From contig JAFQTD010000036.1 of assembly GCA_017409215.1 (NCBI GenBank), forward strand, positions 14,038 through 78,037: DNA of 64,000 nucleotides, in the 5' to 3' direction. This document shows positions 18,097 through 63,380 of this stretch, piece by piece. Made by a program: the position numbers and the translations under genes. A model generated the notes under the pieces. It was given only the letters and a program-made list of their open reading frames with translations, was not told the origin of the DNA and did not search any database. Each line of letters starts with the position of its first letter. The first letter of the stretch is position 1. The DNA is from Alphaproteobacteria bacterium. GTDB lineage: Bacteria > Pseudomonadota > Alphaproteobacteria > Rs-D84.

Positions 18097-18262
18097 GAGT
18101 TCGAAAGTCAAATTTCGATTTTTTATCTTTTCAAACACACTTTCGAATCCCTTATAACACTCTAAAAACATTCGAACCAACGACAATATCATAAAACTAA
18201 TGAAAATCTGCTCTAACAGGTCTTTTTATTCAAAGTGGTTGTGGTCGGTGGGCGGCCGTCAA
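18097..18262 (+). repeat. 165-bp cassette-boundary repeat, copy 2
   Basis: GAGTTCGAAAGTCAAATTTCGATTTTTTATC...GGTTGTGGTCGGTGGGCGG aligns along its full length with 15055-15214. Confidence 0.7.
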
Positions 18263-18294
18263 GGATTTTATATGCTTTTAAAACGATTTAAAAG

Positions 18295-19578: not shown

Positions 19579-19684
19579 ATTATTCCTCTCTATCGGTAAT
19601 AATATACCATAAAAAACATAAGTTTTCAAATCGCGCTCCGCCCACTGGCCACAACCCAAAAAAAACCAGTCATACGGCTGGTTT

Positions 19685-20654: not shown

Positions 20655-21767
20655 CTATACCTTAAAATCTTTGCGTTTACGATTACATTTAGGGTCGGTC
20701 ACACTGGGTGCATTCAGAATAGGCAGATTTTTGGGATTTTGATATTGGCAACCGTGCTCTAAAACAGTCATATCTTGAACGGCCCAACCTCTTCCAAAAT
20801 TATCAAACCCTTTGGCGCTTTTATGCAAGGCCCAACGCTTTGCGGTAATTTGTTGACGTAAATCCGGTCCCTTATAATCCTTGATTGCCTGAAATGTTTT
20901 GGGACCCAAATAGCCGTCTGCGTCTGTTCCGACAATTGATTGCAGTGTTTTTACTAAAACTTTGGCTGTGCCGTTGCCTTGATTAAAGGCAGTTGAAAAG
21001 AAATCGCCACGTAGTGCATCAGGCAGTTGGTTGAATTTATAGTTTTTATAAAAGTGACCATACGCAATATCTTGTGCGTCATGAATAGAAAATTCTGGAT
21101 TGTTTACAGAGTCTGCAAAGTATCTTTCTGTCACACCAAAACAAGTTATTCCCGCCCCATCACCAACATCAGAGCATACAGGTGCTTCGATTCTAAGTTG
21201 TGTAGCCCACGCCTTTTGGAAAGCGGGGTCGTTATGATATTTGTTGTTTGGTGGACAGTACAAATTTGCCACACGACCATCGGTATATTTAATTGCAGGT
21301 GTGCATGACTGATTAAATCTGTTAAAATCTGCCAAGCCAATAGTGTATGCAGGTTGTGCATCCCTGGTGTATTCAATCATATCTTTTATAAAATTATTTT
21401 TGCACGATAAAAAGGTGCTTGTAGTGAACGAGCTATGTCCTGCAAGACAAATTTTCATCAGGTTTCGCGCAGACAAATATCCCTGGTTTTTTGATGCTAA
21501 TTCTTCATACTGCGCAATGGCGTTATTTAAATTCTGTCCTTCGAAATGTTGTGCCAGCGCTACTTCTGCGATGCTTGGGTCGAATAAAATTGCGTTTTCT
21601 CCATCTTTATTAACACCGATATTGTTATCTGGCTGTGGCACGTTTTGCGTCAGTGACAAATCGCCAAGTGAATCCAGTTCGTTTATGATTTCGTTGTGAT
21701 AGGCCAAGGCATTTTGAATCAACAATCCAGACATTGGAATAAAGAGTATTGTAAATATCTTTCTCAT
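20655..21767 (-). CDS. secreted GH108-family muramidase with PG_binding_3 domain and unknown N-terminal extension
   Basis: Start at the ATG at 21767 (AGGAG RBS) gives signal peptide MRKIFTILFIPMSGLLIQNALA. The C-terminal half has the GH108-like block IEAPVCSDVGDGAGITCFGVT and the peptidoglycan-binding block DADGYLGPKTFQAI. The N-terminal ~190 aa are Cys-containing and of unknown fold. Confidence 0.65.
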   Translation of the reverse strand: MRKIFTILFIPMSGLLIQNALAYHNEIINELDSLGDLSLTQNVPQPDNNIGVNKDGENAILFDPSIAEVALAQHFEGQNLNNAIAQYEELASKNQGYLSARNLMKICLAGHSSFTTSTFLSCKNNFIKDMIEYTRDAQPAYTIGLADFNRFNQSCTPAIKYTDGRVANLYCPPNNKYHNDPAFQKAWATQLRIEAPVCSDVGDGAGITCFGVTERYFADSVNNPEFSIHDAQDIAYGHFYKNYKFNQLPDALRGDFFSTAFNQGNGTAKVLVKTLQSIVGTDADGYLGPKTFQAIKDYKGPDLRQQITAKRWALHKSAKGFDNFGRGWAVQDMTVLEHGCQYQNPKNLPILNAPSVTDPKCNRKRKDFKV

Positions 21768-21786
21768 AAAAAAACTCCTGCTTTTT

Positions 21787-22812
21787 TTACAACGCATCAG
21801 AACAATTTTCTGCAACTTCGATTAATTTCTTAATTACACTGATTTGCGATGCGTTAAATGCAGTTGCAACCGCGCTAGAAACAGTTGCGCCTGCAGCCAA
21901 AACATTTGCGGTGGTATTTAAGTTTTTTTCTTTTTGTTCTGCGCCTGTGGTACTATCATTTCGAATGTTTTTGCTGTTTGCAAGTGCGCTGACAATGGTT
22001 CCTGCGCCACCTGTGGTTGCGGTTGCTATTGATGATATTTTTGCACCTGTTGCGCGTTTATCGATTTTCGATAAGTCTATATAGTCATAACCCTCACACG
22101 CTGTGATTACATCAGCGGCATCAAATGTAGGTTCGCCTGAGATTTGTGCTGCCTTATATGATAATCTTAAATCAGACATTGCGTTGATGCAATTTTCAAC
22201 TTGGTCTTTTAATGATTGGTCTGTTTTATTTTTGTCTGCGATAATTGCCCCTGCAACACCTGTCACAGTGGTACCTGCCAACAATCCTGTTCTTAAATTG
22301 CCCAGATTTTTTGATTTTTTCTGCAGTTCATCCGTATTGTCTGTTGCCTCAGCCTGCTTTTCTTCTGAGGTACCAAAATCTTCAAAGTTAAGATTTTCTA
22401 CGTCATTGGAAAGCTGATCCAAAGCACTTTCTGTTGCTTTACCAGCTGTTTGTGTACCTTTAAGTGTTTCTCTGGTTTTCTCCAGTCGTACAGATAATGC
22501 TTTGTCTATACCTGCTTTTTTTATCCCGGCAACTGTTGCGCCGACCCCTAAACCCGTTCCGACACCAGTTATCGCGGTGTTTATTCCGGCCATTTTTTTT
22601 AATTCATCCAGACTATCTTCTATTCCATTGCATTCCCTATAAACAGCGCCCAGCGCTTCGTCCAATGGTAAAGGTTCCGCATCGGCAAAACCAGGGCACA
22701 ACATAACCATAACAACAAAGTGCTTGTAAATTTTCACTGTATTCTCCTTTGCCAAGAATTGTATCATAAATACCAACTTGAAACAAGTGTGAATCTTGTT
22801 TTTTTTTCCCAA
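21787..22812 (-). CDS. secreted Ala/Gly/Thr-rich protein, paralog of 57789-58727
   Basis: Signal peptide ...HFVVMVMLCPGFADA. Shared blocks with the paralog: YxxCxGIxDxLxxLKKMAGINTAIT.VGT..G.GATV.GI.K and KEKNLNT..NVLA......ATA..FNA.QIS.IKK..EVA..C. The true start may be an internal Met near 22767. Confidence 0.55.
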   Translation of the reverse strand: MGKKNKIHTCFKLVFMIQFLAKENTVKIYKHFVVMVMLCPGFADAEPLPLDEALGAVYRECNGIEDSLDELKKMAGINTAITGVGTGLGVGATVAGIKKAGIDKALSVRLEKTRETLKGTQTAGKATESALDQLSNDVENLNFEDFGTSEEKQAEATDNTDELQKKSKNLGNLRTGLLAGTTVTGVAGAIIADKNKTDQSLKDQVENCINAMSDLRLSYKAAQISGEPTFDAADVITACEGYDYIDLSKIDKRATGAKISSIATATTGGAGTIVSALANSKNIRNDSTTGAEQKEKNLNTTANVLAAGATVSSAVATAFNASQISVIKKLIEVAENCSDAL

Positions 22813-22982: not shown

Positions 22983-23057
22983 GCTCCCATCGTCTAGCGG
23001 TTAGGACACCAGATTCTCATTCTGGTAACACGGGTTCGATTCCCGTTGGGAGTGCCA
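22983..23057 (+). tRNA. tRNA-Glu (anticodon CTC as read)
   Basis: Cloverleaf folded by hand. Acceptor GCUCCCA/UGGGAGU, D stem GUCU/GGAC, anticodon stem CCAGA/UCUGG, loop UUCUCAU, T arm ACGGG-UUCGAUU-CCCGU. CCA is encoded. Confidence 0.8.
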
Positions 23058-24694: not shown

Positions 24695-24695
24695 A

Positions 24696-26330: not shown

Positions 26331-26339
26331 AATATACTC

Positions 26340-27053
26340 TTAGTTCCCGTTGCTGACGTTCAATGTCTGTGTTGTACCGTTATCATCGCTAAAGACAACC
26401 CCATCATAGACAGAGATTGATTTTACAGTCAAACCATCCAGCGCTTTTCCAACGGTGATGCGTTTTGTTTGTCCTGACGTCAGGTCTTCTACAGTGGCTT
26501 GTAATTGTCCCCCTGCGCCGACAACATTTACCAATCTGTACTTCTGGCTGATGTCTACACTTGGGGTTTCTGTGTCGGCAACAACTGCCACAGGTCGTGT
26601 GGCATTTTTTTCTGTCTCTGCCAGCCAAGATTCTTTTTCGCGTTCGATACGTGCGGCCTCGGCTTCCAGTTTTGCCTTTTGTGTTTCAATTTCTTGTTGT
26701 TGTTGTTCTGCGCGTCCAGACAGTGTGTCAATTTCCATATGCAGTTTTATTTTTTCTGCTGCAAGTCTGTCTAATTCCAAATCCAACTGTGCGCGTTCTT
26801 TTTCCAATTGCATCAAGATTTTTTCTTGTTCCAAATCTGTGATTTGTTGAAACAACGAACCATCAGGTGAATAGTTTTCGATTGCGTCCATTGCAACTTC
26901 GTCCATTAAATTTTCTTCGACAAAATCACCGTCGCTATCTTCGACGAAAACATCAGCAGATTCAACATAGACATCATCTGCCAGTGCTGGTTGAAGTCCC
27001 CCCAGCAGAACAATCAGTAAAAAACCAAATGACACAATCTTTTTATTTTGCAT
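26340..27053 (-). CDS. secreted coiled-coil protein with PilP/GspC-like C-terminal beta domain
   Basis: Signal peptide, an acidic stretch, a long coiled coil and a C-terminal ~70-aa beta domain (YRLVNVVGAGGQLQATVEDLTSGQTKRITVGKALDGLTVKSISVYDGVV). The start overlaps the GspL-like gene's stop by 11 nt. Confidence 0.45.
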   Translation of the reverse strand: MQNKKIVSFGFLLIVLLGGLQPALADDVYVESADVFVEDSDGDFVEENLMDEVAMDAIENYSPDGSLFQQITDLEQEKILMQLEKERAQLDLELDRLAAEKIKLHMEIDTLSGRAEQQQQEIETQKAKLEAEAARIEREKESWLAETEKNATRPVAVVADTETPSVDISQKYRLVNVVGAGGQLQATVEDLTSGQTKRITVGKALDGLTVKSISVYDGVVFSDDNGTTQTLNVSNGN

Positions 27054-28305
27054 AGATAATCACCTCATAGTTCCAAGTACGGGACACCGCGTCCCAAGAA
27101 GCGCGCATTAAATACACACCACCAAAGTTTTCAAAAGCCTTCATAAATTGCATTGGCACTAATTTTGTTTCTGCGCCAACTTCTACCACATTCACAGTTG
27201 CTGTTTCGACCCCGTTTGTAATTGTATCGACAACAATCTGTGTGTTTAAATCTGTATCAATTCCTTGAAATTGACTGGTTATATCGCGTACAACTGTATC
27301 TGGGTCACGTTCATCTTGCGATGAATACGCATTCAGTGTTGGCAATTTTGCGGACACGCGCAATGTATCTTCGTTGATTTCTTCTACGAATCCGCCCGGC
27401 ATTAATTCTGATGCGATGTTATAAAATTCGACCAATGTTCCAAAAGTACGCCTAAATTCAACAACCGCCTTGTCTTCTTCGCAAGAAACGTAAACTTGAT
27501 TCCATCCAACAACAGGTTGCATCAAAAAAGCCATTGCACGATAGCATATTTCAGCGCGTTCATCTGGCGCAGGTATATTTTCGAACGGCATAACCAGTGG
27601 TGGTGGCGGTGTTTGTTTTTCGATTTCAAATTGTTTATCCAGTTCTTTATTTTTTTCTTCGATTTGTCGTTTGTATTCTGCAACTAGTTCTGGATTAAGT
27701 TCGTGTACCTGTGGACGTGGCATCATCGTTTGTACAATTGAATCACGAAAAATTCCTGTGGCCAACAAGACAAAGCCCCCCAGCAAAATCAATGAAAACA
27801 AACCCGCTCTAAAATGACTAATGGGGCGCAAAAATATACGTGAACGTCCCCCTAATAAGGCGGTCAAATCGCGTTCAATGGCGCGTGGCATCCCCCAAGA
27901 ATCTGGCGCAAAGAATGCCCCCCAATCTGGAATTTCGGTCAGTTTTACATATTCTTCGCGTGCTTCATTCTCTTTATCAAACAGTTTATCTTGCAAGATA
28001 ATGCCATTTCGCGCTGCAACCAAATAAAATCCAGCAGGCACTCTAAAAACAGCAATAAATGATGTGTATTCTGAAAATGCCTCCATAACCTCGGCTGCGG
28101 CGCTGTTCATCCCGACCCGCATTCCTGTTCGGCTGGCCCCCAGACCTACCATCGCGCGGTATTCAACAAACAAATTAAAATGTCGATTAATTCCACGTGC
28201 CAACGAATGCGCATAATTGCGCGCATTAAAAGCAGCGCCAATTGGTTGCCACATCAATCCAACTGCGTATTTTCTGCGATTAATAGTTATTACCTGTCGT
28301 GCCAA
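27043..28305 (-). CDS. GspL-like / PilM-PilN-like bitopic assembly protein
   Basis: 420 aa with a ~170-aa cytoplasmic domain, a single TM (LFSLILLGGFVLLATGIF) and a ~220-aa periplasmic domain. It is first in the operon with the GspE and GspF homologs. Confidence 0.45.
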   Translation of the reverse strand: MARQVITINRRKYAVGLMWQPIGAAFNARNYAHSLARGINRHFNLFVEYRAMVGLGASRTGMRVGMNSAAAEVMEAFSEYTSFIAVFRVPAGFYLVAARNGIILQDKLFDKENEAREEYVKLTEIPDWGAFFAPDSWGMPRAIERDLTALLGGRSRIFLRPISHFRAGLFSLILLGGFVLLATGIFRDSIVQTMMPRPQVHELNPELVAEYKRQIEEKNKELDKQFEIEKQTPPPPLVMPFENIPAPDERAEICYRAMAFLMQPVVGWNQVYVSCEEDKAVVEFRRTFGTLVEFYNIASELMPGGFVEEINEDTLRVSAKLPTLNAYSSQDERDPDTVVRDITSQFQGIDTDLNTQIVVDTITNGVETATVNVVEVGAETKLVPMQFMKAFENFGGVYLMRASWDAVSRTWNYEVIIYAK

Positions 28306-53400: not shown

Positions 53401-54210
53401 ATGAAACTTGTTTTAATGGGAACAAATTCATTTGTTGTTCCGATTTTCGAAGCGATAAGAAATGCAGGTCATGAAATAATGGCTGTGTTTACGCGTGCGC
53501 CAAAACCGGTTGGACGCAAACAAATTTTAACCCCGTCGCCTGTGCACATTTGGGCGAATGAAAATAATTTACCTGTACACACGAATGTGTCTGAATATAA
53601 TTATGCACCTGATATGGTTGTGGTTATTTCTTATGGTGTTATATTGCGTGATAATGTTTTGGGGTCTGCGCCTTGTATAAATTTACACCCCAGTTTATTA
53701 CCAAAGTATCGTGGGCCGTCACCAATCAAGACTGCAATATACAATGGCGATAAAAAGTCTGCAGTATGTTTAATGCGTGTTGTGCATGAACTGGATGCCG
53801 GTGATATTTTAATGTGTCACGAATTCGATATTGATATTAACGATACGAATGACAGTATTGAAGACTTAGTTTCAAATATCGGTTCTGAAATGTTGGTTGA
53901 ATATTTGTCTGCACCTGATAGATACACTGCTGTACCACAAAATGGTGTACCGACATTCACCCACAAATGGACCAGTGCCGATATGAACATTGATTGGTCA
54001 CGCAATCCGATTGAAATACATAATCAGGTACGTGCGTTGGGGGCGGGGCGTACAGTGATAAATGGCACAGATGTAAAAATCCTGGAAACCAGAATTAATA
54101 ACGATGGCGAACTGGAAATTATAAGTCTGCAACCATCTGGAAAAAAACCGATGGATTGGAAAAGTTTTGTAAACGGTTTGCGTGGTGCAGAAATAAAATA
54201 TGGGGAATAA
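53401..54210 (+). CDS. fmt: methionyl-tRNA formyltransferase (short form)
   Basis: N-terminal formyltransferase fold. def-fmt linkage. At 269 aa it is shorter than typical Fmt. Confidence 0.85.
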   Translation: MKLVLMGTNSFVVPIFEAIRNAGHEIMAVFTRAPKPVGRKQILTPSPVHIWANENNLPVHTNVSEYNYAPDMVVVISYGVILRDNVLGSAPCINLHPSLLPKYRGPSPIKTAIYNGDKKSAVCLMRVVHELDAGDILMCHEFDIDINDTNDSIEDLVSNIGSEMLVEYLSAPDRYTAVPQNGVPTFTHKWTSADMNIDWSRNPIEIHNQVRALGAGRTVINGTDVKILETRINNDGELEIISLQPSGKKPMDWKSFVNGLRGAEIKYGE

Positions 54211-54398: not shown

Positions 54399-54626
54399 AT
54401 GGCAATCAGATATTGCAAGAACAGAAACTGCACAGTTGTTTTAAATGAATATAATATGGATTGTGCGTGCATAAATTGTAGTAAAGAGATAAAACATTGC
54501 AACAGTCTTGATTGTGCGGACAAGGGGGTCAGGCTAAAATCAGATGATGTACGTGAGTTGTATATGCGCAAATGTCATGGATGTATAAACTTTTCTAAAG
54601 TTATAATATCTCAACGTAACAGATAA
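54399..54626 (+). CDS. small Cys-rich protein (75 aa, 9 Cys)
   Basis: RBS AAAGGAAAAATA. Cys spacing CxCxxC-x6-C-x4-C...CxxC, similar to the next ORF. Confidence 0.4.
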   Translation: MAIRYCKNRNCTVVLNEYNMDCACINCSKEIKHCNSLDCADKGVRLKSDDVRELYMRKCHGCINFSKVIISQRNR

Positions 54627-54634
54627 AGAAAAAA

Positions 54635-54865
54635 ATGTCACAGATAACCAAGAATAGTACAATGTGTGGTTTATGGGGGGTTGACGTTAATCTGTCAGAG
54701 CACAATCGTTTTGGCAAATGCGAATGTGTCGGGTGTATTGGCAATGCCTGTAATAATTGCGTAATATACCATGAATTGTGTACAGAAAGTGCAAATTCAA
54801 CTTTTAACAGGCTGGTGTCGCGGTGCAAAAAATGTCGAACAACGGAATTAATAAAACAAAGATAA
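54635..54865 (+). CDS. small Cys-rich protein (76 aa, 9 Cys), paralog-like to 54399-54626
   Basis: CxCxxC-x4-CxxC-x6-C...CxxC. No signal peptide. Confidence 0.4.
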   Translation: MSQITKNSTMCGLWGVDVNLSEHNRFGKCECVGCIGNACNNCVIYHELCTESANSTFNRLVSRCKKCRTTELIKQR

Positions 54866-55601: not shown

Positions 55602-57553
55602 TTCCACCTGCGATTTGTTTGTGTGTATTTTATTTTGTTGTTTGGATAAATTACAAACCCACCGCTTAGTATTTTATGCTGACATCTTGGCGCATTAATT
55701 TTCAAATAAGACACAATAATTTTGACAGAATCATCTGCGCACAGTTTTTCAATGTTTTTCATCAGTGGAACAAACTTTTGAATATAAACAATATTACCAT
55801 TTCTGAAGATTCCATTGTTATGCGACTTACGTTTGTTTGGTGTATCGACTTTTTGTCCATTTACCTGTTTCCAGGTATCAAACGCGAATTTATGCCCGCT
55901 GGCGCGTGCCTTGTTAAATTCCAGAATTCCGTCATCATTCAAGAACGCAACCAGTTCATTATCGTATGAAGTGTAAAATATGGGCTTTGGGTTCAGATAA
56001 ACAGCACTTATCCCAGAAACAAAAAATATAATAAACAGGATATAATTAAACTTTATTTTAATTGGTTTAATAAAGACAAGTGACATAAATGCCAACACAA
56101 ATAACATCAGTGCAAAATTTGAAACGTGTGGCACTGTCAAATTCGCGTACGGCATATCAGAAATAATCTTGGCGATTTGAAACAACCAGTTATAAATATC
56201 GTGCGCCCATATTATTGGCGAAAACACACCGAATATAGCGCAGAAAACACCGATAAAAACCAGTGGCATAATTGCGACAGAAAACACAGGCAACAAAATT
56301 AGATTTCCTAACAAACTATAAACTGGTATCGCGCCAAAATGTGCGGCGACAAAGGGCGCGGTAAATATCGTCGCAACCACAGAAGTTAAGACACACGCAT
56401 AAACAATTTTTAATAATTTATTGTGTGGCATTCTGGGTTTTACGTCTTGGTATAACCAGACCAATCCAAAGACTGCAGAAAACGAAAGTTGAAATCCAGC
56501 CTGCATAACACTGTGCGGATTAAAAAGGAAAATTGTGCAGAATGCCAAGGCTACATTTCGCATAGAAATCGCGTTGCGCCCAAACACCAACGCGCCAAAT
56601 ACTAAACTGGTCATCAAAAACGCGCGCAAGGTTGCGATATCGATTCCAGACAAGAATAAATAAAACAGCAACCCAAACCATGCGCAAATTGTCGCGGGAA
56701 TCCTTGCGGGTATTCGTTTGGTTATTGGTGGAATTGTGCGAAAAATAAGATACATTACAACAAACAGCCACCCACCAACCAAAGTCATATGAAACCCGCT
56801 GATTGACCATATATGCCCGATACCAGTTGCGGTCCATATTTTATTATCATCATCTGGCACAGCGGATTTGTACCCCAACACCAAACTGTCCACCAAGAAA
56901 GATTTTGATTTTTTATGTAATGTATTGCGCAGTGAATTTGTGCCGATATCATTCCCTGATTCAATTACGGTCAATTCGTTTATATAACCTGTTGCAGAGA
57001 TATTGTTAAAATACGTCCATTTTGCAAAGTCAAATGTTTCAGGCGCGTATGCAGAATTAGGCTTGAAAATACCAGCATCAACACTAACTTTATCACCAAT
57101 ATTGGGTAAATTGGTTTCGTTTTTGATTGACAATCTCAGGTTTGCTGTGCCGTCGCCTGCATTAATATCATTTGCATTTACGGTTAAAACAATTCTTGCC
57201 TTGTCACTGGTGTAATCAACAGATTTAACAATCCCTGTCAGACTAAGGTTATGCATATCGCGTGAAATCTTTGGTGTATTTATGATATTGGTAAAACAGC
57301 ACGCATAGCAGAATCCAAATGCCACCACGCAAATCGCACGTATGAATATGGGGCATTTTCTACAGAATAAAATTGCGCCGCTTAAAATTGCAAAAATAAC
57401 AGCGTATGTAAAATCAGGTTCAAAACCTGCATTAAAATACATAATCGCCCCACCGGCCAACAGTAATGGCACATACAGGAACAGATTTTGATACTGATTA
57501 TCGAACCATTCTTTCATAAAAAAATTATAGGCGCGAAATCCCAAGTCCTGCAA
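55598..57553 (-). CDS. comEC: ComEC/Rec2-family DNA internalisation channel protein
   Basis: 651 aa, polytopic, with a ComEC competence-domain core. An internal Met at 57517 is an alternative start. Confidence 0.8.
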   Translation of the reverse strand: MQDLGFRAYNFFMKEWFDNQYQNLFLYVPLLLAGGAIMYFNAGFEPDFTYAVIFAILSGAILFCRKCPIFIRAICVVAFGFCYACCFTNIINTPKISRDMHNLSLTGIVKSVDYTSDKARIVLTVNANDINAGDGTANLRLSIKNETNLPNIGDKVSVDAGIFKPNSAYAPETFDFAKWTYFNNISATGYINELTVIESGNDIGTNSLRNTLHKKSKSFLVDSLVLGYKSAVPDDDNKIWTATGIGHIWSISGFHMTLVGGWLFVVMYLIFRTIPPITKRIPARIPATICAWFGLLFYLFLSGIDIATLRAFLMTSLVFGALVFGRNAISMRNVALAFCTIFLFNPHSVMQAGFQLSFSAVFGLVWLYQDVKPRMPHNKLLKIVYACVLTSVVATIFTAPFVAAHFGAIPVYSLLGNLILLPVFSVAIMPLVFIGVFCAIFGVFSPIIWAHDIYNWLFQIAKIISDMPYANLTVPHVSNFALMLFVLAFMSLVFIKPIKIKFNYILFIIFFVSGISAVYLNPKPIFYTSYDNELVAFLNDDGILEFNKARASGHKFAFDTWKQVNGQKVDTPNKRKSHNNGIFRNGNIVYIQKFVPLMKNIEKLCADDSVKIIVSYLKINAPRCQHKILSGGFVIYPNNKIKYTQTNRRWN

Positions 57554-57788
57554 TAAAAACTTTTTTTAGAAACAAAAAAATGATATAATTCCTTTTGACA
57601 ACAGTAAGTGTTGTTGGGTGTGGAAACCCAAATTCTAGGTTGTGCTGGTATTTACCGGCACAAAAAACTCCAATGCGCAAGTTGGAGGGCATTTGAATAT
57701 ATCGAATAGAATGCACTATTTTCCTAGAATAATAGTTTCCAACCTCCAACCACCTGTTGTTCAGGTGTTTTTTTGTATAGGAGAGATT

Positions 57789-58727
57789 ATGAGAAAAATA
57801 ATATCGCTATTGTCACTTATGGTTGTTATTCCTGCATATTCGAATGAAGTGTTATCATTGGATGACGCGTTGCGTGCGACATATACCGCCTGTGTTGGCA
57901 TTGATGATGCGTTGTACGATTTAAAAAAGATGGCTGGGATTAATACAGCGATAACTGCAGTTGGTACGGCTGCTGGCGCGGGCGCAACAGTTGTTGGCAT
58001 TGTGAAAAGTGGTAAAGATGCCAAGGCAGAGGCACTAGAGGCGATATTAAAAGAAATTGCAGAAATGTCCAAAAATCAATCGGCAATGACCGAAACAGAA
58101 ACCGCTACATTTATGTCTGAATTTAATTCTGCATACGAAACTGTACTAAAGAATGAACAAGAAGCGGAAACAGAATTGCAAAAAACAGTTCAGCAATCCA
58201 AGAAACTGGGTAATTGGCGCACTGGATTGATGGCAACTGGCGCGGCAACAAATCTGGCTGGTGCAATTATTGCGGGTACGAACAGGGTGGATGGTGATTT
58301 AGACACACAAATAACCGCATGCAAGAACTCGCTATCTGCATTAAGAACGTCGATTATGCAGGCGCGCATAAATGGCGAAGACGTGGCCGAGGCGCAATCT
58401 ATTGAATCTGCCTGCAGTGAATTTGAATATGTTGACCTGTCCAAGATTAACACGCGTGGCAAAGGTGCGATGATTTCATCTGGGCTTGGTGCGGCAACTG
58501 GTCTGGTTGGTACATTTACGTCTGCATCCGCCAACAGTCAGAAGGTTCGTGATGACAACAGCGATTCGGGTAAACAGAAAGAAAAGAACCTAAATACTGC
58601 ATCAAATGTCTTGGCGGGCGCATCGGCTGCTGCATCTGCCACTGCTACGGTATTTAACGCAACCCAGATATCTGCGATTAAGAAAGTTGCAGAAGTCGCA
58701 TCAAAATGTACGGGGGTATTGAAATGA
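57789..58727 (+). CDS. secreted Ala/Gly/Thr-rich protein, paralog of 21787-22812
   Basis: ATG at 57789 after AGGAGAG. Signal peptide MRKIISLLSLMVVIPAYS. It shares conserved blocks with 21787-22812 and its stop overlaps the next gene's start (ATGATAA). Confidence 0.6.
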   Translation: MRKIISLLSLMVVIPAYSNEVLSLDDALRATYTACVGIDDALYDLKKMAGINTAITAVGTAAGAGATVVGIVKSGKDAKAEALEAILKEIAEMSKNQSAMTETETATFMSEFNSAYETVLKNEQEAETELQKTVQQSKKLGNWRTGLMATGAATNLAGAIIAGTNRVDGDLDTQITACKNSLSALRTSIMQARINGEDVAEAQSIESACSEFEYVDLSKINTRGKGAMISSGLGAATGLVGTFTSASANSQKVRDDNSDSGKQKEKNLNTASNVLAGASAAASATATVFNATQISAIKKVAEVASKCTGVLK

Positions 58728-61700
58728 TAAAGAAAATATTAACCTTGATCGCGTGTATGTTTATTTCGGTCCCAACTAGTGCCGAAATATATCTTAGAAC
58801 TAGTTCGGAAAAACTTGAATCGGTTGTAAAAAAACATTTTGAAGCCAAATGGGCTCAGATAGGTGTTTTAGATGCATATCGTAATTATTTAAAACAAAAT
58901 TCTAATCAAGGAATTACAGCGAATCAATTGTGGTTTATATGCAAGGAAGGTGGGCTTTCGATTAGAAATACTGAACACAAAGAACGTTGTAGTGCGTTCG
59001 CAAATGATTTGATGGATAAATCTGGTGTCTATTATAATGTGTGCCGTTCGGACAAAGACAAAGAAGGCATAACAAAATATTGTATAGATAATGTTTTTGA
59101 TAGAAATTTTGGTGATAGTGATATTCAAGTTACCCCGCGTGAGGCTATTTTCTTGTCAAAAGCATATGCAAGAAAGCAGTATAAAGACGAAATAGAATGT
59201 TCAGATTTAATAGAAACAAGTGATAGTGATGATTTTGTTTCGTGTAAATCCATAGAAAAGGAAGATACTTATTATGAGTTTAGATTTTCTGATGCCAAAG
59301 AAACAAAAGATACAGCTGTTAACCATGGTGTAGAGGCTGGTATTTGTGCAATATATAATTTGCCTTATGTAAAGTCGGGTTCGACCGTCGCCCGAAGTAT
59401 GACAGCAATGGTTACATCGTGGCCATCAACATGTAAAACAGAAACATCATCTACTTGTGAAGAGATAAACAAAACAGCGGCTGATTTTGGGTACCAGATA
59501 TCGTATGAAAAAAATCATGGGGGATGTGCTTTTAAAAGCAATTGGATGTCGCCAGAAGACATAGTGAATGAATATGGTGAACAGATTGATAATACCATTT
59601 TCTCGGCAGACAATACTGCAATTCAAATCTATGCATCGGTATCATTAGACGAAACGATAAGACAATATGCAGTAATGGCGCTTGCACCAGCGCTGGTGAC
59701 AGACTTTAAATGTAACTCTTCGCATCGTCGTTTATCGCGTGGTATGTCAAATTCAGATGATGTCCTAACTTGTTATATCAATCAAAAGCGAGTTGATTTT
59801 ATTTTTGATGACATCACACAATCAAGGCACGCGCTGTTTGGAAAAAAGAAGATAAATGCTGGCACACAAGGTATGTCTTGTATTATTTCTGGTGGTACAT
59901 ATAACGGTAAGGCCTGCATGCATTTAAATCAAGAGCAATGTGAACTATTACGTGCTAAGAATCAAGAAGAATGCCCCAGTTGCAAGGCCGCAGAATGGGA
60001 CGGTGAAATGTGTATATTACCAGATGCAAAAGCCGCAACCAATATTCAAAAGGCTGGCGTTATAACATTAATCGTAGCAGGGACGGTTGTATCTGTTATG
60101 CTTAGCCCCGTAACTGCTGGCGGTTCTGCTACGGTCATGGCATACGTTACATTAGGCGCAGAAGTAGCAGGAGGCGCCATAGAGCTTGTTTCACAAATAA
60201 AAATTAATGCTATTATAGATGAATTTTTTGTTCAAAGCAATCAATGTCACCAAGCTGAATGTGCAGAAAGCTTAGTAAAAGAATTTATACAGCGTTTGGC
60301 AAATATACAAAATGATTTAAAATCAGAAGAAATAGATGCTGCAGATAAAGAACTGGCGCGATTAATAAAACTTATGCCAGAAGATTCTGATTTTATCGAA
60401 GATATTATTAACAATGGCACTACATTAGAACAAAGAAAGAAGGGGTTCTTTGATGCAGATGGCTGGGAACCAGAGCAAATATGGCGTGCAGTTGGTATAA
60501 TGTTACAGCTTACGGGGATTGTGTCAGGTCTTGTTGAAAAATTCACAACCAAAACCGTTACCCAAATGGACGAAAGCACAGATGCGTTGCAACACTTGAC
60601 ACGTTCACAAGCAAAACGTCTGGATGATGCAGCTACTCAGTTAAAAGCCATCGAGGAGCAACGAAATGTTGCAGGATTGACCAAAACACAAGCAGATGAT
60701 TTATGGCGTAGAGCAAAAGACATAAATCAATCAAAAAACACATTGCTTAAAGAACTTGGTTATAAGGAAGGGGATGAATTATTAGACTTGTTGAAACAAG
60801 AGGCTTACCAGCTGGATGATTTAGAAGTGCTTAAAACACAGCTGGATGATGTCGCAAAACAGCAAGATAACATGTATACAATCAGCAAAAGGGGCAACAA
60901 GGTTCTGAAACAAGGTAAATCGCCCAAAGATGTGGAGAAATTGACAAAACAAATCGATGAAATTTCGGCACAGATTAAGCAAACAACCACAAATATAGAG
61001 GACTTAACAAAACAAATAAACGATGTTTGGTCTGCCAGAAAAATCCAAAACGTAACAACCTCTACCACAAAGCTAGTTGAGACGGGGTTGACAAATACTG
61101 ATATAGTTGGGCGCGTTGTTGTTCTTGAGGCTAAAAATCAATCCAGAAAACAGTGGAATACAAACGATATGAAGGTGAATTTTTCTAATGCAGAGCCAAA
61201 TGATGAAACGGCCCCAGGGGCAGAGGAACCCATATCCTCTGACCCTGTGGTTGTGCCAGAACCTGAACCGGCTCCTGTGGTCACACCGACCCCTGTGGTT
61301 ACACCGACTCCAGATGGTCAAACAATCACACCGTATGATGTTAAAAAGCCAAAAACGGGTTTAATTGCGGGGGCAGCTGTATTGGGTACGGTTGGTACAG
61401 GTTTCTTGGTTGGTAAATTGTTGAATCGCAACCAAGACGACCCGTCAGCCCCACAAGATGTCATAACAGGGTCGACAGTTGACAATGAAATAAGAACAAT
61501 ATTAAACAATGCAAATGGCCTTATTGGTACAGTTAACAATAATCAAATAATCCTAGAAGCGATACCTACGTCTTTGGAAACAATGTCGCCAATAGTAAAC
61601 ATAAACAATAATGCAGTTGTTGTTGTTAATTACAAAGGTCATAATTTACCTTTCTATATTAACCGTACTGCGACTGCTTGGACACCATTGTTGGGAATCG

Positions 61701-61984
61701 GGCAAACCGGCGGTTGGTTAAACACGTATCAGGGCAAAGCCCAACCGACATATATAACCCAGATTCAAGCGTTATTAAACCAAAAACTTGCACCGGCAAT
61801 GGTTGCTAAATATATTGGCGTTAATTCCAGTGGCGTTCAGTTGCCGCTTGCTGGTGCTGGGGCGTATTCTGTAATTAATGCAGAATTTTCTGGTGGTGTT
61901 GTTCAGACATATAACGGCAAACTTAGTGGTGCGGATAAGAGCCTGCACGACAACAATTATAATAAAATACAAGCGATAAAATAA
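58724..61984 (+). CDS. large (1092 aa) secreted/membrane protein with two membrane-spanning regions, central coiled coil and Pro-rich linker
   Basis: ATG at 58724 after a GGGGG SD. Signal peptide MIKKILTLIACMFISVPTSA, then a Cys-rich ~420-aa N-terminal domain. Hydrophobic segments lie at about aa 450-500 and at aa ~890. Between them are a ~380-aa coiled coil and PEPEPAPVVTPTPVVTPTP. A bidirectional terminator lies at 61986-62022. Confidence 0.6.
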   Translation: MIKKILTLIACMFISVPTSAEIYLRTSSEKLESVVKKHFEAKWAQIGVLDAYRNYLKQNSNQGITANQLWFICKEGGLSIRNTEHKERCSAFANDLMDKSGVYYNVCRSDKDKEGITKYCIDNVFDRNFGDSDIQVTPREAIFLSKAYARKQYKDEIECSDLIETSDSDDFVSCKSIEKEDTYYEFRFSDAKETKDTAVNHGVEAGICAIYNLPYVKSGSTVARSMTAMVTSWPSTCKTETSSTCEEINKTAADFGYQISYEKNHGGCAFKSNWMSPEDIVNEYGEQIDNTIFSADNTAIQIYASVSLDETIRQYAVMALAPALVTDFKCNSSHRRLSRGMSNSDDVLTCYINQKRVDFIFDDITQSRHALFGKKKINAGTQGMSCIISGGTYNGKACMHLNQEQCELLRAKNQEECPSCKAAEWDGEMCILPDAKAATNIQKAGVITLIVAGTVVSVMLSPVTAGGSATVMAYVTLGAEVAGGAIELVSQIKINAIIDEFFVQSNQCHQAECAESLVKEFIQRLANIQNDLKSEEIDAADKELARLIKLMPEDSDFIEDIINNGTTLEQRKKGFFDADGWEPEQIWRAVGIMLQLTGIVSGLVEKFTTKTVTQMDESTDALQHLTRSQAKRLDDAATQLKAIEEQRNVAGLTKTQADDLWRRAKDINQSKNTLLKELGYKEGDELLDLLKQEAYQLDDLEVLKTQLDDVAKQQDNMYTISKRGNKVLKQGKSPKDVEKLTKQIDEISAQIKQTTTNIEDLTKQINDVWSARKIQNVTTSTTKLVETGLTNTDIVGRVVVLEAKNQSRKQWNTNDMKVNFSNAEPNDETAPGAEEPISSDPVVVPEPEPAPVVTPTPVVTPTPDGQTITPYDVKKPKTGLIAGAAVLGTVGTGFLVGKLLNRNQDDPSAPQDVITGSTVDNEIRTILNNANGLIGTVNNNQIILEAIPTSLETMSPIVNINNNAVVVVNYKGHNLPFYINRTATAWTPLLGIGQTGGWLNTYQGKAQPTYITQIQALLNQKLAPAMVAKYIGVNSSGVQLPLAGAGAYSVINAEFSGGVVQTYNGKLSGADKSLHDNNYNKIQAIK

Positions 61985-61985
61985 A

Positions 61986-62022
61986 ATCGACATAAAAAAT
62001 CCCCCAAATCGGGGGGATTTTT
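61986..62022. terminator. bidirectional terminator between the 1092-aa gene and glyQS
   Basis: AAAAAATCCCCCAAATCGGGGGGATTTTTTATTT. Confidence 0.55.
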
Positions 62023-63380
62023 TATTTCACAATTTCCAATAATTTTTCTTTTATCTGTGTGATTGGAACGCGTTCCTGTGCCATTGTATCGCGATGACGC
62101 AGTGTGACGGTATTATCCTCGATTGTTTGATGGTCAACGGTTATACAAACAGGTGTACCGATTTCATCGTGTCTGCGATAATTCTTGCCAATATTACCAG
62201 AATTTTCCAGTTCAATACGTCCGATTCCCAACCTGCGCAAATCACGCACAATTTCATTAGAAATATTTAACAGTTCTGGAATATTACGCGCCAAAGGAAT
62301 CACCGCTGCCTTAACTGGTGCCAATGCGGGTTTCAGTTTCAATACTGTACGTGACTTACCATCACCCAAATCTTCTTCGTTATACGCTTCTATCATCACT
62401 GCCAGCATTGCGCGATTAATCCCCATTGCTGTTTCGATAACGTATGGAACAAATGTTTTTCCGGTTTGTGGGTCACTGAACGCAAGTTTTGTGATACTGT
62501 CCTTGTTTTCGATAACATTTGCGTTAATTTCCAGTTCTTTTTGTCCTTTGGTATGTGATCCCAAATCAAAGTCTTGGCGATTATGTATACCTTCGACTTC
62601 ATCAAAACCATCTGGGAATTCATATTCGATATCAACTGCGGCCTTGGCATAGTGTGCCAACTTTTCGTGTGGTGCAAAGCGCAATTTTTCTGCAGGTATT
62701 CCCAAAACATTAATCCACCAAGCCAGTCTTTCGTCCATCCACATTTTATGGAATGCTTCATCATCGGCTGGATTGACAAAGTACTGCATTTCTGCCTGTT
62801 CAAATTCACGCATACGGAACACAAAGCCACGCGGTGAAATTTCATTACGGAACGCTTTACCAATTTGTGCGATACCGAACGGCAGTTTGTGTGGTTTTGC
62901 ATCCAATACGTTTTTAAAGTTGGTATATGTTGTTGTTGCGGTCTCTGGTCGCAGATATGCATTAATTGCGCCATCTGCAGTTGCGCCAATTGACAACCCC
63001 ATCATCAGTTGATATGCACGTGGCTCGGTTATTTCTGTACTGCCACAATTATCGCATTTTGATTGGTCTTTCATTTTGTCCTGACGCATACGTGCGCCAC
63101 ACTTTTTGCATTCAACCAATGGGTCTGAAAATCCAGCCTCGTGTCCGGAATATTTCCACATAAGGCGATTTGTAATCAAGGCCGCATCCAGTCCTTCGAT
63201 ATCATCACGCGAATAAATCATCGCGTTCCACCATGCGTCGCGAATATTTTTCATCAGTTCAACACCGTACGGGCCATAATCGTATGCCCCCCCCAGACCA
63301 CCATATATTTCCGAGCCTGTAAATATAAATCCACGACGTTTACAAAGTGCGACAATATCATTAACTGTTTTTGCTGCCAT
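62022..63380 (-). CDS. glyQS: glycine--tRNA ligase, dimeric alpha2 type
   Basis: 452 aa with a class II aaRS core and anticodon-binding domain. N-terminal sequence (MAAKTVNDIVALCKRRGFIFTGSEIYGGLGGAYDYGPYGVELMKN) is typical of alpha2 GlyRS. Confidence 0.9.
   Translation of the reverse strand: MAAKTVNDIVALCKRRGFIFTGSEIYGGLGGAYDYGPYGVELMKNIRDAWWNAMIYSRDDIEGLDAALITNRLMWKYSGHEAGFSDPLVECKKCGARMRQDKMKDQSKCDNCGSTEITEPRAYQLMMGLSIGATADGAINAYLRPETATTTYTNFKNVLDAKPHKLPFGIAQIGKAFRNEISPRGFVFRMREFEQAEMQYFVNPADDEAFHKMWMDERLAWWINVLGIPAEKLRFAPHEKLAHYAKAAVDIEYEFPDGFDEVEGIHNRQDFDLGSHTKGQKELEINANVIENKDSITKLAFSDPQTGKTFVPYVIETAMGINRAMLAVMIEAYNEEDLGDGKSRTVLKLKPALAPVKAAVIPLARNIPELLNISNEIVRDLRRLGIGRIELENSGNIGKNYRRHDEIGTPVCITVDHQTIEDNTVTLRHRDTMAQERVPITQIKEKLLEIVK

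What the first reader, a model, noticed from the sequence alone, without database searches (positions are those of the whole stretch)
57554..61984. Locus 2 of the module: Ala-rich paralog translationally coupled to a 1092-aa protein with two membrane-spanning regions, and a structured 5' leader
The stop of the 361-aa paralog overlaps the ATG of the 1092-aa gene (ATGATAA). The large protein has a signal peptide and a Cys-rich ~420-aa N-terminal domain with more than 20 Cys. A hydrophobic segment follows at about aa 450-500 (AGVITLIVAGTVVSVMLSPVTAGGSATVMAYVTLGAEVAGG). After it come a ~380-aa Lys/Glu/Gln coiled coil, a Pro/Thr/Val-rich linker, a second TM and a ~200-aa Asn/Gly-rich C-terminal domain. 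The topology implies domains on both sides of a membrane. That could be a signalling or adhesion protein, or an effector that inserts into host membranes. The operon is preceded by a ~230-nt leader with a terminator-like hairpin, CACCTGTTGTTCAGGTG+T7, at about 57746-57770 just before the RBS. This could be an attenuator or riboswitch.
Basis: partly seen in the sequence, partly recalled or inferred. Interest (0 to 1): 0.6.

Follow-up and report, generated by a model that had tools for sequence, protein, structure and literature searches.

The report
New leader RNA gating surface-protein operon
In a tiny-genome gut bacterium (Candidatus Enterousia group), a two-gene operon for an unknown pair of exported envelope proteins sits behind a new, strongly conserved, folded leader RNA that ends in a terminator and precedes many other secreted-protein and accessory genes in these bacteria.

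Summary
Gene A is 312 aa (ATG 57789), not 361. Gene B is 1086 aa (ATG 58724), and its start overlaps A's stop (ATGA). The leader is about 195 nt.

A and B match no Pfam, NCBIfam, PHROG or PDB family. They form a lineage-specific pair in order Rs-D84 (Ca. Enterousia, genomes under 1 Mb). The pair occurs in several copies per genome. A is conserved. B has a conserved Cys-rich N-terminal half and variable C-termini. Their function is unresolved. I infer an envelope or cell-contact module.

The strongest result is the leader (57590-57780). It belongs to a structured RNA class with no match in Rfam 15. Each copy has its own promoter, six helices, an intrinsic terminator and an RBS about 10-20 nt further on. 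I found 25 copies in genome loci and 95 in metagenome loci. In the 95-copy alignment, 48 of 51 base pairs show changes on both sides. An 8-9 bp alternative pairing is kept through four sequence variants.

The RNA precedes A-B operons, many signal-peptide proteins, small HTH regulators, nucleases and restriction-modification genes. It most likely acts as a transcription attenuator or riboswitch with an unknown signal.

The parts
57581..57589 (+). Extended -10 promoter box TGATATAAT of the leader transcription unit
   Evidence: Read. A TAnn[AT]T box lies within 25 nt upstream of 91 of 104 distinct leader copies, and 39 have TGn in front. The simple -35/-10 scan did not list this site.
57590..57780 (+). 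Structured leader RNA, full-length copy of the new class. P1 57597-57615. P2 57616-57627 with 57735-57744. P3 57631-57639 with 57723-57731. P4 57642-57661. P5 57668-57687. P6 57689-57714.
   Evidence: Covariance-model hits of 217 bits (R1) and 184 bits (R2), against 13 bits on the minus strand. Fold z-score -6.2. Covariation. No Rfam match.
57681..57688 (+). 3' arm of P5 (GTTGGAGG). It can pair either with the 5' arm of P5 (57668-57673) or with the downstream segment 57743-57750.
   Evidence: In 22 copies falling into 16 sequence combinations, the arm and the downstream segment form 7-9 contiguous pairs (8 or 9 in all but one copy). The pairing is kept through four sequence variants. Cognate energy -16.6 against -12.2 kcal/mol for non-cognate. 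RNAalifold on an independent MAFFT alignment picks this helix.
57743..57751 (+). Switch segment CCTCCAACC, directly 5' of the terminator stem
   Evidence: In most copies about 4 of its bases are also part of the terminator stem (mode 4; 41 of 92 copies have exactly 4, and 80 of 92 have at least 3). In the window's copy the overlap is 0.
57751..57774 (+). Intrinsic-terminator-like hairpin (6-bp stem, 5-nt loop) plus T7
   Evidence: The stem covaries across the class: 5 of 6 pairs change on both sides.
57780..57785 (+). Ribosome-binding site GGAGAG of gene A, 5 nt after the T-run
   Evidence: The start codon lies within 30 nt of the model end in 68 of 88 copies.
57789..58727 (+). Gene A: 312-aa exported all-helical protein. 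It has 4 conserved Cys and Gly/Ala/Thr-rich hydrophobic helices.
   Evidence: At least 1805 clusters, all unnamed. AlphaFold2 model is all helix, pLDDT 74. No Pfam, NCBIfam, PHROG or PDB match.
58724..61984 (+). Gene B: 1086-aa protein. Signal peptide aa 1-20. Cys-rich alpha/beta domain 21-445. Hydrophobic region 437-490. Helical region 491-771. Pro/Thr/Val linker 831-876. TM-like segment 877-901. C-terminal domain 917-1086.
   Evidence: Family of 459 clusters at 50% identity. The N-terminal domain and C-terminal domain have pLDDT about 90. No known family or fold found.
61992..62025 (.). Two-way terminator hairpin between B and the convergent glycyl-tRNA synthetase gene. It marks the end of the operon.
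20655..22734 (-). Paralogous module ('locus 1'): A' (46% identical to A) overlapping a signal-peptide GH108/PG_binding_3 muramidase gene. It has no leader RNA.
   Evidence: The covariance model finds no copy there.

Best explanation
Locus 2 is an operon controlled by a leader RNA in an Rs-D84 (Candidatus Enterousia-type) gut alphaproteobacterium.

Transcription starts at an extended -10 promoter and first produces a folded RNA of about 190 nt. The RNA has a 5' hairpin and two long-range helices. These enclose a junction that carries three hairpins. An intrinsic terminator follows, ending 14 nt before the A start codon. No room is left for a second promoter, so A and B are made only when RNA polymerase reads through this terminator.

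The RNA carries conserved, mutually exclusive pairings. The 3' arm of hairpin P5 can pair either with its own 5' arm or with a segment that abuts the base of the terminator stem. In most copies that segment overlaps the stem. In the window's copy the 5' strand of P1 can also pair with the terminator's 5' arm and loop. The leader therefore most likely works as a transcription attenuator of the riboswitch type. An unknown ligand or factor would bind the junction domain and decide between the terminator fold and a read-through fold.

The same RNA precedes many other genes in these bacteria. Most encode exported proteins. This suggests it gates a large regulon.

The operon encodes two translationally coupled exported proteins (ATGA overlap). 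A is a conserved helical protein with Gly/Ala-rich hydrophobic helices and two likely disulfides. B is a large protein with a disulfide-rich ectodomain, a membrane-embedded hydrophobic region and a long helical stalk. In this copy B also has a Pro-rich linker, a second membrane segment and a compact C-terminal domain.

I infer that A and B assemble into an envelope or cell-surface complex. The organism is predicted to be partner-dependent, and this complex would mediate contact with, or uptake from, other cells.

Shown: gene structure, conservation, copy number, the RNA structure and the alternative pairings. Inferred: attenuation, the existence of a ligand, A-B complex formation and the cell-contact role.
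For: RNA:
- The window copy is a full-length hit of 184-217 bits.
- There are 25 copies in genome loci and 95 in 80 metagenome loci.
- On 87 distinct sequences, 88.6% of cells are paired, against 67% in shuffles and about 40% when the partner is slid.
- On the same sequences, 48 of 51 pairs change on both sides. Results are similar on 15 genome copies.
- An independent MAFFT/RNAalifold run recovers P1, P4, P6 and the terminator with covariation.
- G-U pairs are frequent, and the minus strand scores only 13 bits. The folded molecule is therefore the + strand RNA.
- The arm-switch pairing is kept through four variants.
- About 4 bases of the switch segment are shared with the terminator stem in most copies.
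- In the window, the terminator fold (-65.1) and the fold that consumes the terminator (-66.0 kcal/mol) are nearly equal in energy.
- The start codon lies within 30 nt of the RNA's end in 68 of 88 copies.
- In L005 the switch segment and terminator stem are deleted together.
- No Rfam family matches.

Proteins:
- The A-B pair and the ATGA overlap occur in nearly all of about 80 loci, with several copies per genome.
- A paralogs are 53-100% identical. B paralogs are 20-45% identical in the N-terminal 600 aa.
- B has three C-terminal classes.
- 14 Cys are invariant in B.
- AlphaFold2 gives confident models for the N-terminal domain, the helical region and the C-terminal domain.
- A'-type paralogs are coupled to other exported proteins.
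- Poly-C tracts lie in the signal-peptide region of 6 A genes, which suggests contingency-type surface genes.

Organism: genome under 1 Mb, no respiration or standard transporters, predicted obligate symbiont or parasite with many unknown membrane proteins (PMC12306168).
Against: - No ligand, regulator or transcript data exist.
- In the window's own copy the arm-switch helix does not overlap the terminator (overlap 0). It can also coexist with the terminator in a nested fold.
- The P1-terminator complementarity that would serve as antiterminator here is only weakly better than non-cognate across the class (-10.4 against -9.4 kcal/mol; median rank 30 of 82).
- The metagenome set was selected with a pattern that fixes the arm and switch sequences. 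Those 95 copies therefore say nothing about that helix.
- Alignments made by the covariance model lean towards its structure.
- Tandem arrays of up to four units, each with its own promoter and terminator, fit a stand-alone RNA product better than a simple leader.
- The genes behind the RNA are so diverse (HTH regulators, methylases, helicase, ABC exporter) that no ligand can be guessed.
- For the proteins, no homology, fold match or genomic partner supports any specific function.
- The topology is ambiguous.
- Signal peptides and TM segments were judged only from hydropathy.
Confidence: 0.6

Rival explanations
1. The 190-nt RNA is mainly a stand-alone small RNA, either trans-acting or protein-binding. 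It has its own promoter and terminator and is present in many copies. Expression of the downstream gene is just leaky read-through.
For: Each unit has a -10 box and a terminator. Tandem arrays of 2-4 units occur, each with its own promoter: L113 8595-9387, and also L155, L116, L120 and L154. At least 6 copies lie on one 234-kb contig. Some copies have no ORF within 400 nt. Loop and junction sequences are highly conserved, such as GAAUAUAUUGAAUAA and GCUAUUU.
Against: In 68 of 88 copies a start codon with an RBS follows within 30 nt. There is then no room for another promoter, so the downstream genes depend on read-through. The three-way complementarity of P5 5' arm, P5 3' arm and switch segment next to the terminator is what a switch needs and serves no purpose in a simple sRNA. 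The two roles are not exclusive: terminated riboswitch transcripts acting in trans are known (own knowledge: SreA/SreB of Listeria).
Confidence: 0.2
2. The leader is the target of a protein antiterminator or a specialised elongation factor (NusG paralog or RNA-binding protein), or is itself a polymerase-modifying antitermination RNA. It would not be a small-molecule riboswitch.
For: The genes behind it are accessory, surface or secreted and horizontally mobile types. This is the kind of gene set served by RfaH/ops, LoaP, UpxY, put and EAR elements (own knowledge). No metabolic genes are present that would point to a metabolite.
Against: Known protein-dependent antiterminator targets are short hairpins, and put and EAR RNAs are not followed directly by their own terminator (own knowledge). 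A six-helix domain of about 190 nt with conserved junctions is more typical of ligand-binding RNAs. No candidate protein partner was identified, and none was searched for systematically.
Confidence: 0.2
3. A-B is a polymorphic toxin or effector system. B would carry a conserved delivery domain at the N-terminus and exchangeable toxic domains at the C-terminus. A would be its chaperone, translocator or immunity protein.
For: The N-terminal 600 aa are conserved and the C-termini vary: 27 with linker+TM+CTD, 17 with an HExxH motif and 22 other. Several copies occur per genome. The organism is predicted to be parasitic.
Against: No known toxin domain was found in 36 variant C-termini or in the window's C-terminal domain. 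No small downstream immunity gene is present. In the window B is followed by a terminator and the convergent glyS gene, and elsewhere the next genes are mixed. A is exported and far more conserved than B, which does not suit an immunity protein.
Confidence: 0.15
4. A is an alpha-helical pore-forming or membrane-inserting protein of ClyA/AhlB/MakA type, and B is its receptor-binding or anchoring partner. Together they would open the membrane of a partner cell.
For: A is about 310 aa and all-helical, with helices of 40-58 residues and four Gly/Ala-rich hydrophobic stretches. The weak Foldseek hits include AhlB, SmhB, MakA and YaxB. It is encoded in an operon with a partner, as in bi- and tripartite alpha-pore-forming toxins (own knowledge).
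Against: The Foldseek matches are not significant (E 0.4-1, TM about 0.24, rmsd above 30 A). De-novo helical bundles and TolC score as well or better. The A model has only pLDDT 74 from a shallow alignment.
Confidence: 0.12
5. B is a transmembrane receptor. The Cys-rich domain would sense something outside, and the helical region would act inside the cell, together with an HExxH protease domain in the paralogs that carry one. This is the 'signalling' reading.
For: The N-side of the second TM-like segment is net positive and its C-side net negative in 6 family members. This puts the helical region in the cytoplasm if the central region crosses once. 17 of 66 paralogs have a C-terminal HExxH motif and no second TM segment. 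That layout recalls sensor-proteases such as BlaR1 (own knowledge).
Against: The flanks of the central hydrophobic region are acidic on the C-side, which speaks against a cytoplasmic location. The Cys pair conserved in at least 90% of family members just after it (C508, C513) suggests an oxidising compartment. No signalling domain was detected. HExxH is only a motif here, with no Pfam peptidase hit.
Confidence: 0.12

Closest known systems
Terminator-type riboswitches that serve broad gene sets, e.g. c-di-GMP-I (GEMM) (own knowledge; Rfam tested here)
   Same: Own promoter, conserved multi-helix domain with covariation, and an intrinsic terminator just before the RBS. It sits in front of many unrelated genes enriched for surface or secreted proteins. 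Occasional tandem copies occur.
   Different: No match to any of 4227 Rfam models, even at E up to 10. The architecture differs: a 5' hairpin and two long-range helices around a junction with three hairpins. The ligand is unknown. Tandem units each have their own promoter. The class was seen only in Rs-D84-type gut bacteria and metagenomes.
trp-type attenuator logic (segments 1:2, 2:3, 3:4) (own knowledge)
   Same: Three-way complementarity. The P5 5' arm pairs with the P5 3' arm. The P5 3' arm pairs with the switch segment. The switch segment forms the base of the terminator stem in most copies.
   Different: There is no leader peptide. The competing segments are about 60 nt apart and embedded in a large folded domain. 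In the window copy the switch segment abuts the terminator but does not overlap it.
Leader elements for processive antitermination (RfaH/ops, LoaP, put, EAR) (own knowledge)
   Same: They sit at the 5' end of accessory operons for surface or secreted products.
   Different: Those elements act on distant terminators and are short, or are not followed by their own terminator. No NusG paralog link was tested here.
Polymorphic toxin / contact-dependent systems (CdiA, Rhs, MafB) (own knowledge)
   Same: Large exported protein in several copies, with a conserved N-terminal part and exchangeable C-terminal parts.
   Different: No recognised toxin, delivery or immunity component. The obligatory partner is a conserved helical protein encoded upstream, not a transporter or an immunity gene.
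ClyA-family alpha-pore-forming toxin components (AhlB, SmhB, MakA, YaxB)
   Same: Size, all-helical long-bundle prediction, hydrophobic Gly/Ala-rich helices, and operon partnership.
   Different: The structural match is not significant, and there is no sequence match.
Holin-endolysin cassettes and muramidase-dependent secretion (GH108 TtsA type) (own knowledge), relevant to locus 1
   Same: In locus 1 the A paralog sits directly upstream of, and overlapping, a GH108 endolysin-like muramidase. This is where a holin gene would sit.
   Different: A' is about 310 aa with a cleavable-looking signal peptide. It is not a small multi-TM holin. The muramidase has its own signal peptide.

Membership tests
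Any Rfam 15 RNA family | Score at or above the family's gathering threshold | tested here: not met
   Only tRNAs were found in the window and in 6 loci with leader copies. At E up to 10 on 57500-57850, only chance-level hits appeared: bxd_3, SL1 and icaR 3'UTR.
Terminator-type riboswitch / attenuator (functional class) | Conserved structured domain supported by covariation | tested here: met
   48 of 51 pairs change on both sides. 88.6% of cells are paired, against 67% in shuffles and about 40% with slid partners, on 87 sequences. Also.
Terminator-type riboswitch / attenuator (functional class) | Intrinsic terminator between the domain and the RBS, with no other promoter | tested here: met
   Hairpin 57751-57767 plus T7, RBS 5 nt later. 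68 of 88 copies have the start codon within 30 nt.
Terminator-type riboswitch / attenuator (functional class) | Conserved alternative pairing that excludes the terminator | tested here: inconclusive
   The arm-switch helix is conserved through 4 variants. It shares about 4 nt with the terminator stem in most copies (mode 4; 80 of 92 share at least 3), but 0 nt in the window. The window instead has a P1-terminator alternative at equal energy, which is weak across the class.
Terminator-type riboswitch / attenuator (functional class) | Ligand- or factor-dependent change of termination | not testable with these tools
   Needs in vitro transcription, in-line probing or transcriptomics.
T-box leader | Stem I specifier loop and T-box antiterminator sequence | tested here: not met
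   No Rfam T-box hit, even at a lax threshold. The downstream genes are not aminoacyl-tRNA related.
Polymorphic toxin system | Recognisable C-terminal toxin domain | tested here: not met
   Pfam found no toxin domain in the window's B or in 36 paralogs with other C-termini. Only an HExxH motif appears in 17 of 66.
Polymorphic toxin system | Immunity gene directly downstream | tested here: not met
   B is followed by a terminator and the convergent glyS gene. The genes after B in other loci are mixed.
Two-partner secretion (TpsB/TpsA) | Partner is a POTRA plus beta-barrel transporter, and the cargo has a TPS domain | tested here: not met
   A is predicted all-helical. Neither protein has a Pfam hit.
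ClyA-family alpha-pore-forming toxins | Significant structural or sequence similarity to the family fold | tested here: inconclusive
Chlamydial Inc-type proteins | Bilobed hydrophobic domain of 40-60 aa plus a type III secretion signal, with no Sec signal peptide | tested here: not met
   The uncharged stretch is 36 aa (family median 34). B has a Sec-type N-terminus and a large disulfide-rich N-terminal domain.
GH108 muramidase (locus 1 partner gene only) | Pfam Glyco_hydro_108 above threshold | tested here: met
   23.9 bits against a cut-off of 21.2, plus PG_binding_3 at 19.1 bits, below its 24.6 cut-off. phrog_315 endolysin E 5e-21.

The most novel reading that the evidence does not exclude
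The leader is a new riboswitch class. Its ligand would be a signal of contact with, or the state of, the partner organism, for example a second messenger or a partner-derived metabolite. In a bacterium with a genome under 1 Mb it would act as the master switch for dozens of surface, secreted and accessory genes. The A-B pairs it controls would be a previously unseen, phase- and sequence-variable apparatus that this obligate symbiont or parasite uses to attach to other cells and draw nutrients from them.
Probability: 0.25. Interest if true: 0.9.

Novelty: new variant of a known kind. Interest (0 to 1): 0.72.

Why it matters
Three reasons.

First, the leader is a large orphan structured RNA with very strong comparative support: more than 100 copies and nearly every base pair covarying. 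It is absent from Rfam. Orphan leaders of this quality have repeatedly led to new ligands or regulatory principles.

Second, it precedes a large share of the exported-protein and accessory genes found next to it. At least 6 copies lie on one 234-kb contig of a genome that is probably about 0.9 Mb. RNA-based control may therefore replace much of the lost protein-based regulation in this reduced lineage. That idea can be tested directly with transcript 3'-end mapping and in vitro termination assays.

Third, A and B are abundant protein families with no known relatives and confidently predicted domains. They come from a widespread but uncultured group of human and livestock gut bacteria thought to depend on other cells. 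This makes them prime candidates for the still unknown contact machinery of these organisms.

Tried and rejected
- Family searches. Pfam, NCBIfam and PHROGs on A, B and A' gave only sub-threshold noise.
- PDB sequence searches. Profiles of A, B and the B C-terminal domain found nothing.
- Fold searches.
  - Foldseek against the PDB for A and B gave no hit at E ≤ 0.001; helical-bundle noise dominated.
  - Foldseek against BFVD for B gave one E 3e-4 hit to an uncharacterised Cellulophaga phage protein, with TM 0.09. I consider it meaningless.
- Is A homologous to B's hydrophobic/helical region? hhalign gave probability 47% over 42 columns, so I rejected this.
- Is A fused to B in the long paralogs (P0015/16)? 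An HMM of A finds no A-like domain in any protein longer than 600 aa, so I rejected this.
- Pfam on 36 B paralogs with other C-termini found nothing except a low-complexity hit.
- C-terminal-domain profile against 5.8 billion proteins. It returned only unnamed, mostly fragmentary proteins of the same kind.
- P1-terminator pairing as the general antiterminator. Cognate pairs are only 1 kcal/mol better than non-cognate, so it is not general.
- A local GGGTGTGGAAACCC hairpin seen by eye. Covariation supports the long-range P2 instead.
- MAFFT alignment of both leader types together. It was too poor for a consensus fold. This was solved by covariance-model iteration.
- Phage origin of the RNA. Nine IMG/VR contigs carry it, but in the same host-like contexts. 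This was not informative.
- Exact look-up of B in public assemblies. It is not on record. The nearest is a 97%-identical protein on an ENA contig.
- Literature. Nothing was found on this RNA or on these proteins.

Full report
WHAT IS THERE

The window comes from an uncultured gut alphaproteobacterium. Gene A is 100% identical to a protein of an 'Alphaproteobacteria bacterium' MAG, and the best genome locus is a sheep-rectum MAG. Many related loci are labelled Candidatus Enterousia. This genus belongs to order Rs-D84. Its genomes are below about 1 Mb, are fermentative and lack standard transporters. [quoted passage not shown]

The finding lies between comEC (minus strand, ends at 57553) and a convergent glycyl-tRNA synthetase gene.

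GENES

The mechanical ORF of 361 aa starts at GTG 57642. The real gene A starts at ATG 57789, behind GGAGAG. It is 312 aa, like its homologues.
- Its stop overlaps the start of B (AAATGATAA).
- B is 1086 aa from ATG 58724, and homologues start at the same MIKK motif.
- AlphaFold2, run with a 79-sequence alignment, gives a confident alpha/beta N-terminal domain (21-445, pLDDT about 90).
- It also gives a helical region (490-565), long helices (616-771), a disordered stretch (773-916) and a confident C-terminal domain (917-1086, pLDDT about 93).

THE A-B PAIR IS A CONSERVED, MULTI-COPY MODULE

A belongs to a family of at least 1805 clusters at 90% identity, all unnamed. In 80 genome loci holding an A-type gene at least 53% identical, nearly all are followed by a gene of 850-1800 aa whose ATG overlaps A's stop. 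Truncated contigs are the exceptions.
- These downstream proteins share B's first 600 residues or so at 20-45% identity, with 14 invariant Cys.
- Their C-termini differ. Of 66 copies, 27 have the window's Pro-rich linker, TM segment and C-terminal domain.
- Another 17 have an HExxH motif near the end and no second TM segment, and 22 are something else.
- Several copies occur per genome: three loci each in MAGs RGIG2010 and SIG50.
- A profile search of 1.84 billion representatives finds 459 B-type clusters.

The window's second A-type gene (46% identity, 21790-22734 on the minus strand) overlaps a signal-peptide GH108/PG_binding_3 muramidase instead. Other A'-like genes precede Cys-rich exported proteins. 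An A-type gene coupled to an exported 'cargo' gene is therefore a general arrangement.

NO KNOWN FAMILY OR FOLD

Pfam, NCBIfam, PHROGs, PDB sequence profiles and Foldseek against PDB and BFVD gave nothing significant for A, B or B's C-terminal domain.
- A is predicted all-helical with very long helices. Its weak resemblance to ClyA-type pore formers is not significant.
- A is not homologous to B's hydrophobic region and is never fused to B.
- B's topology stays open. The flanks of the second TM segment suggest that the helical region is cytoplasmic.
- The acidic flank and the conserved Cys pair after the central hydrophobic region suggest the opposite.

THE LEADER IS THE MAIN RESULT

The 191 nt after the -10 box TGATATAAT (57581-57589) fold much better than shuffled sequence (z = -6.2). 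By eye, upstream regions of a subset of A-B loci showed the same layout with different stem sequences.

I built a covariance model from five copies and a second from 15.
- The second model found 25 good copies in 0.96 Mb of genome loci.
- The model found 95 full-length copies in the 80 loci returned.

On 87 distinct sequences, 88.6% of cells form pairs. This compares with 67% after shuffling and about 40% with slid partners. 48 of 51 pairs show changes on both sides. P3 shows all four Watson-Crick pair types at three of its nine positions and three types at three more.

An independent MAFFT/RNAalifold run on 40 copies recovers P1, P4, P6 and the terminator with covariation. Frequent G-U pairs and the poor minus-strand score (13 bits) show that the + strand RNA is the folded molecule. 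Rfam 15 has no matching family. I found no literature on it.

ARCHITECTURE (WINDOW COORDINATES)
- P1 hairpin: 57597-57615.
- P2: 57616-57627 pairs with 57735-57744.
- P3: 57631-57639 pairs with 57723-57731. It encloses P4 (57642-57661), P5 (57668-57687) and P6 (57689-57714).
- Switch segment CCTCCAACC: 57743-57751.
- Terminator: 57751-57767, then T7.
- RBS: 57780-57785. ATG: 57789.

Loops and junctions are highly conserved, for example GAAUAUAUUGAAUAA in P6, GCUAUUU and UAUAGUU.

HOW IT PROBABLY WORKS

The 3' arm of P5 (GUUGGAGG) is complementary both to P5's 5' arm and to the switch segment.
- In 22 genome copies the arm-switch duplex has 7-9 perfect pairs (8 or 9 in all but one copy).
- It is kept through four different sequences: CCUCCAAC, CUCCCCGAC, CUCCCCGC and UCCCGAC.
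- In most copies about four bases of the switch segment (AACC or GACC) also form the bottom of the terminator stem (mode 4; 41 of 92 copies have exactly 4 and 80 of 92 have at least 3).
- The arm-switch helix would therefore remove the pairs next to the U-run.

This is the 1:2 / 2:3 / 3:4 logic of an attenuator. P5 closed gives a full terminator (off). P5 open gives the arm-switch helix and read-through (on).

RNAalifold on the independent alignment prefers the arm-switch fold together with a small GCUAU:AUAGU hairpin. Two global folds are therefore possible.

In L005 the switch segment and terminator stem are deleted together.

The window copy differs. Here the switch segment only abuts the terminator (overlap 0), and the arm-switch fold can coexist with the terminator. 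Instead, the 5' strand of P1 (GACAACAG) can pair with the terminator's 5' arm and loop (CUGUUGUU). This gives a fold of -66.0 kcal/mol, against -65.1 for the terminator fold. That pairing is only weakly supported across the class.

The existence of a switch is thus well supported. Which pairing acts in this copy is not settled. The signal is unknown.

A LARGE AND DIVERSE GENE SET

Of 120 copies, 19 precede A-B operons.
- Among 80 other distinct downstream proteins, 54 have a signal-peptide-like N-terminus and 26 are small and Cys-rich.
- Pfam finds 13 small HTH_31 or HTH_3 proteins and two PLD-type nucleases.
- Pfam also finds an EcoRI-type methylase, HsdM, a UvrD helicase and an ABC exporter.
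- One copy precedes a lipoprotein gene followed by a TPR plus barrel gene.
- At least six copies lie on one 234-kb contig.
- Tandem arrays of up to four units exist, each with its own -10 box. This keeps open that the terminated RNA also has a role of its own.

Other A-B loci lack the leader and have a promoter about 30 nt from the start codon. Six A-type genes carry a poly-C tract of 8-14 C in their signal-peptide region. That is half of all such runs in 0.9 Mb and points to phase variation.

VERDICT

The leader is a real, new class of structured cis-acting RNA with a built-in terminator, most likely an attenuator or riboswitch for an unknown signal. I put confidence that it is a functional structured RNA at about 0.9, and confidence that it acts by conditional termination at about 0.6.

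A and B are new, lineage-specific, translationally coupled exported proteins. Their role as an envelope or cell-contact module of a partner-dependent bacterium is an inference (about 0.35).

The kind of system is known: a leader-controlled operon for surface proteins. Its components are not.

Noticed in passing
L046, L053, L059, L064, L077, L080 (about 15-40 nt around the start of the A-type gene, e.g. L059 ~5985-5998): Poly-C tracts of 8-14 C lie inside the signal-peptide coding region of six A-type genes, always at the same place (…TTTTTACCCCCCCC…). They make up about half of all C/G runs of at least 8 nt in 0.9 Mb of loci. This suggests slipped-strand phase variation of some A-B modules. 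The window's A has none.
   Followed up: partly
L113 8595-9387 (also L155 8682-9112, L116, L120, L154): Leader RNA units occur in head-to-tail arrays of two to four, each with its own -10 box and terminator. In L113 the array lies between clpX and small HTH genes. This is unusual for a riboswitch and hints at a role for the terminated RNA itself.
   Followed up: partly
window 20655-22734 (-), 22983-23057 (+), 23624-28305 (-): Locus 1 is an A paralog overlapping a signal-peptide GH108/PG_binding_3 muramidase gene. It sits next to tRNA-Glu and a type IVb-pilus-like cluster (T2SSF, T2SSE, PilO-like). It has a plain promoter and no leader RNA. The three ORFs downstream of it (17087-20467) have no Pfam match.
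   Followed up: partly
window 54399-54626 and 54635-54865 (+): Two adjacent ORFs of about 75 aa, rich in Cys (CxxC-like spacing), lie between fmt and truA. A related genome (L001) has an 89-aa called gene at the same position.
   Followed up: no
L031 1668-2929 (-) and the next gene; L030 4936-5635 (-); L158 1100-1798 (-): The same leader RNA precedes a lipoprotein gene followed by a TPR plus barrel gene that looks like a surface-lipoprotein assembly (Slam-type) protein (my reading, not tested). It also precedes secreted PLD-family nucleases (PLDc_2, E 4e-25).
   Followed up: partly
L011, L012, L014, L016, L018, L033-L035, L037, L043, L049, L052, L055, L058, L065, L069, L081 (last ~260 aa of the B-type gene): 17 of 66 B-type proteins end in a domain with an HExxH motif and lack the Pro-rich linker and second TM segment. 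Pfam does not recognise it as a peptidase. One JGI record calls such a protein 'predicted metal-dependent hydrolase'.
   Followed up: partly
L005 5807-5984: In the locus whose A is 85% identical to the window's, the leader has lost the switch segment and most of the terminator stem in one deletion. P5 is weakened as well. This looks like a copy that has become constitutive.
   Followed up: no
window 61992-62025: A 14-bp two-way terminator hairpin with T-runs on both strands separates B from the convergent glycyl-tRNA synthetase gene.
   Followed up: no
window 53401-54210 (+): The fmt gene encodes only 269 aa. In L001 the C-terminal formyltransferase domain gets only a faint Pfam hit. This fits gene shortening in a reduced genome.
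   Followed up: no
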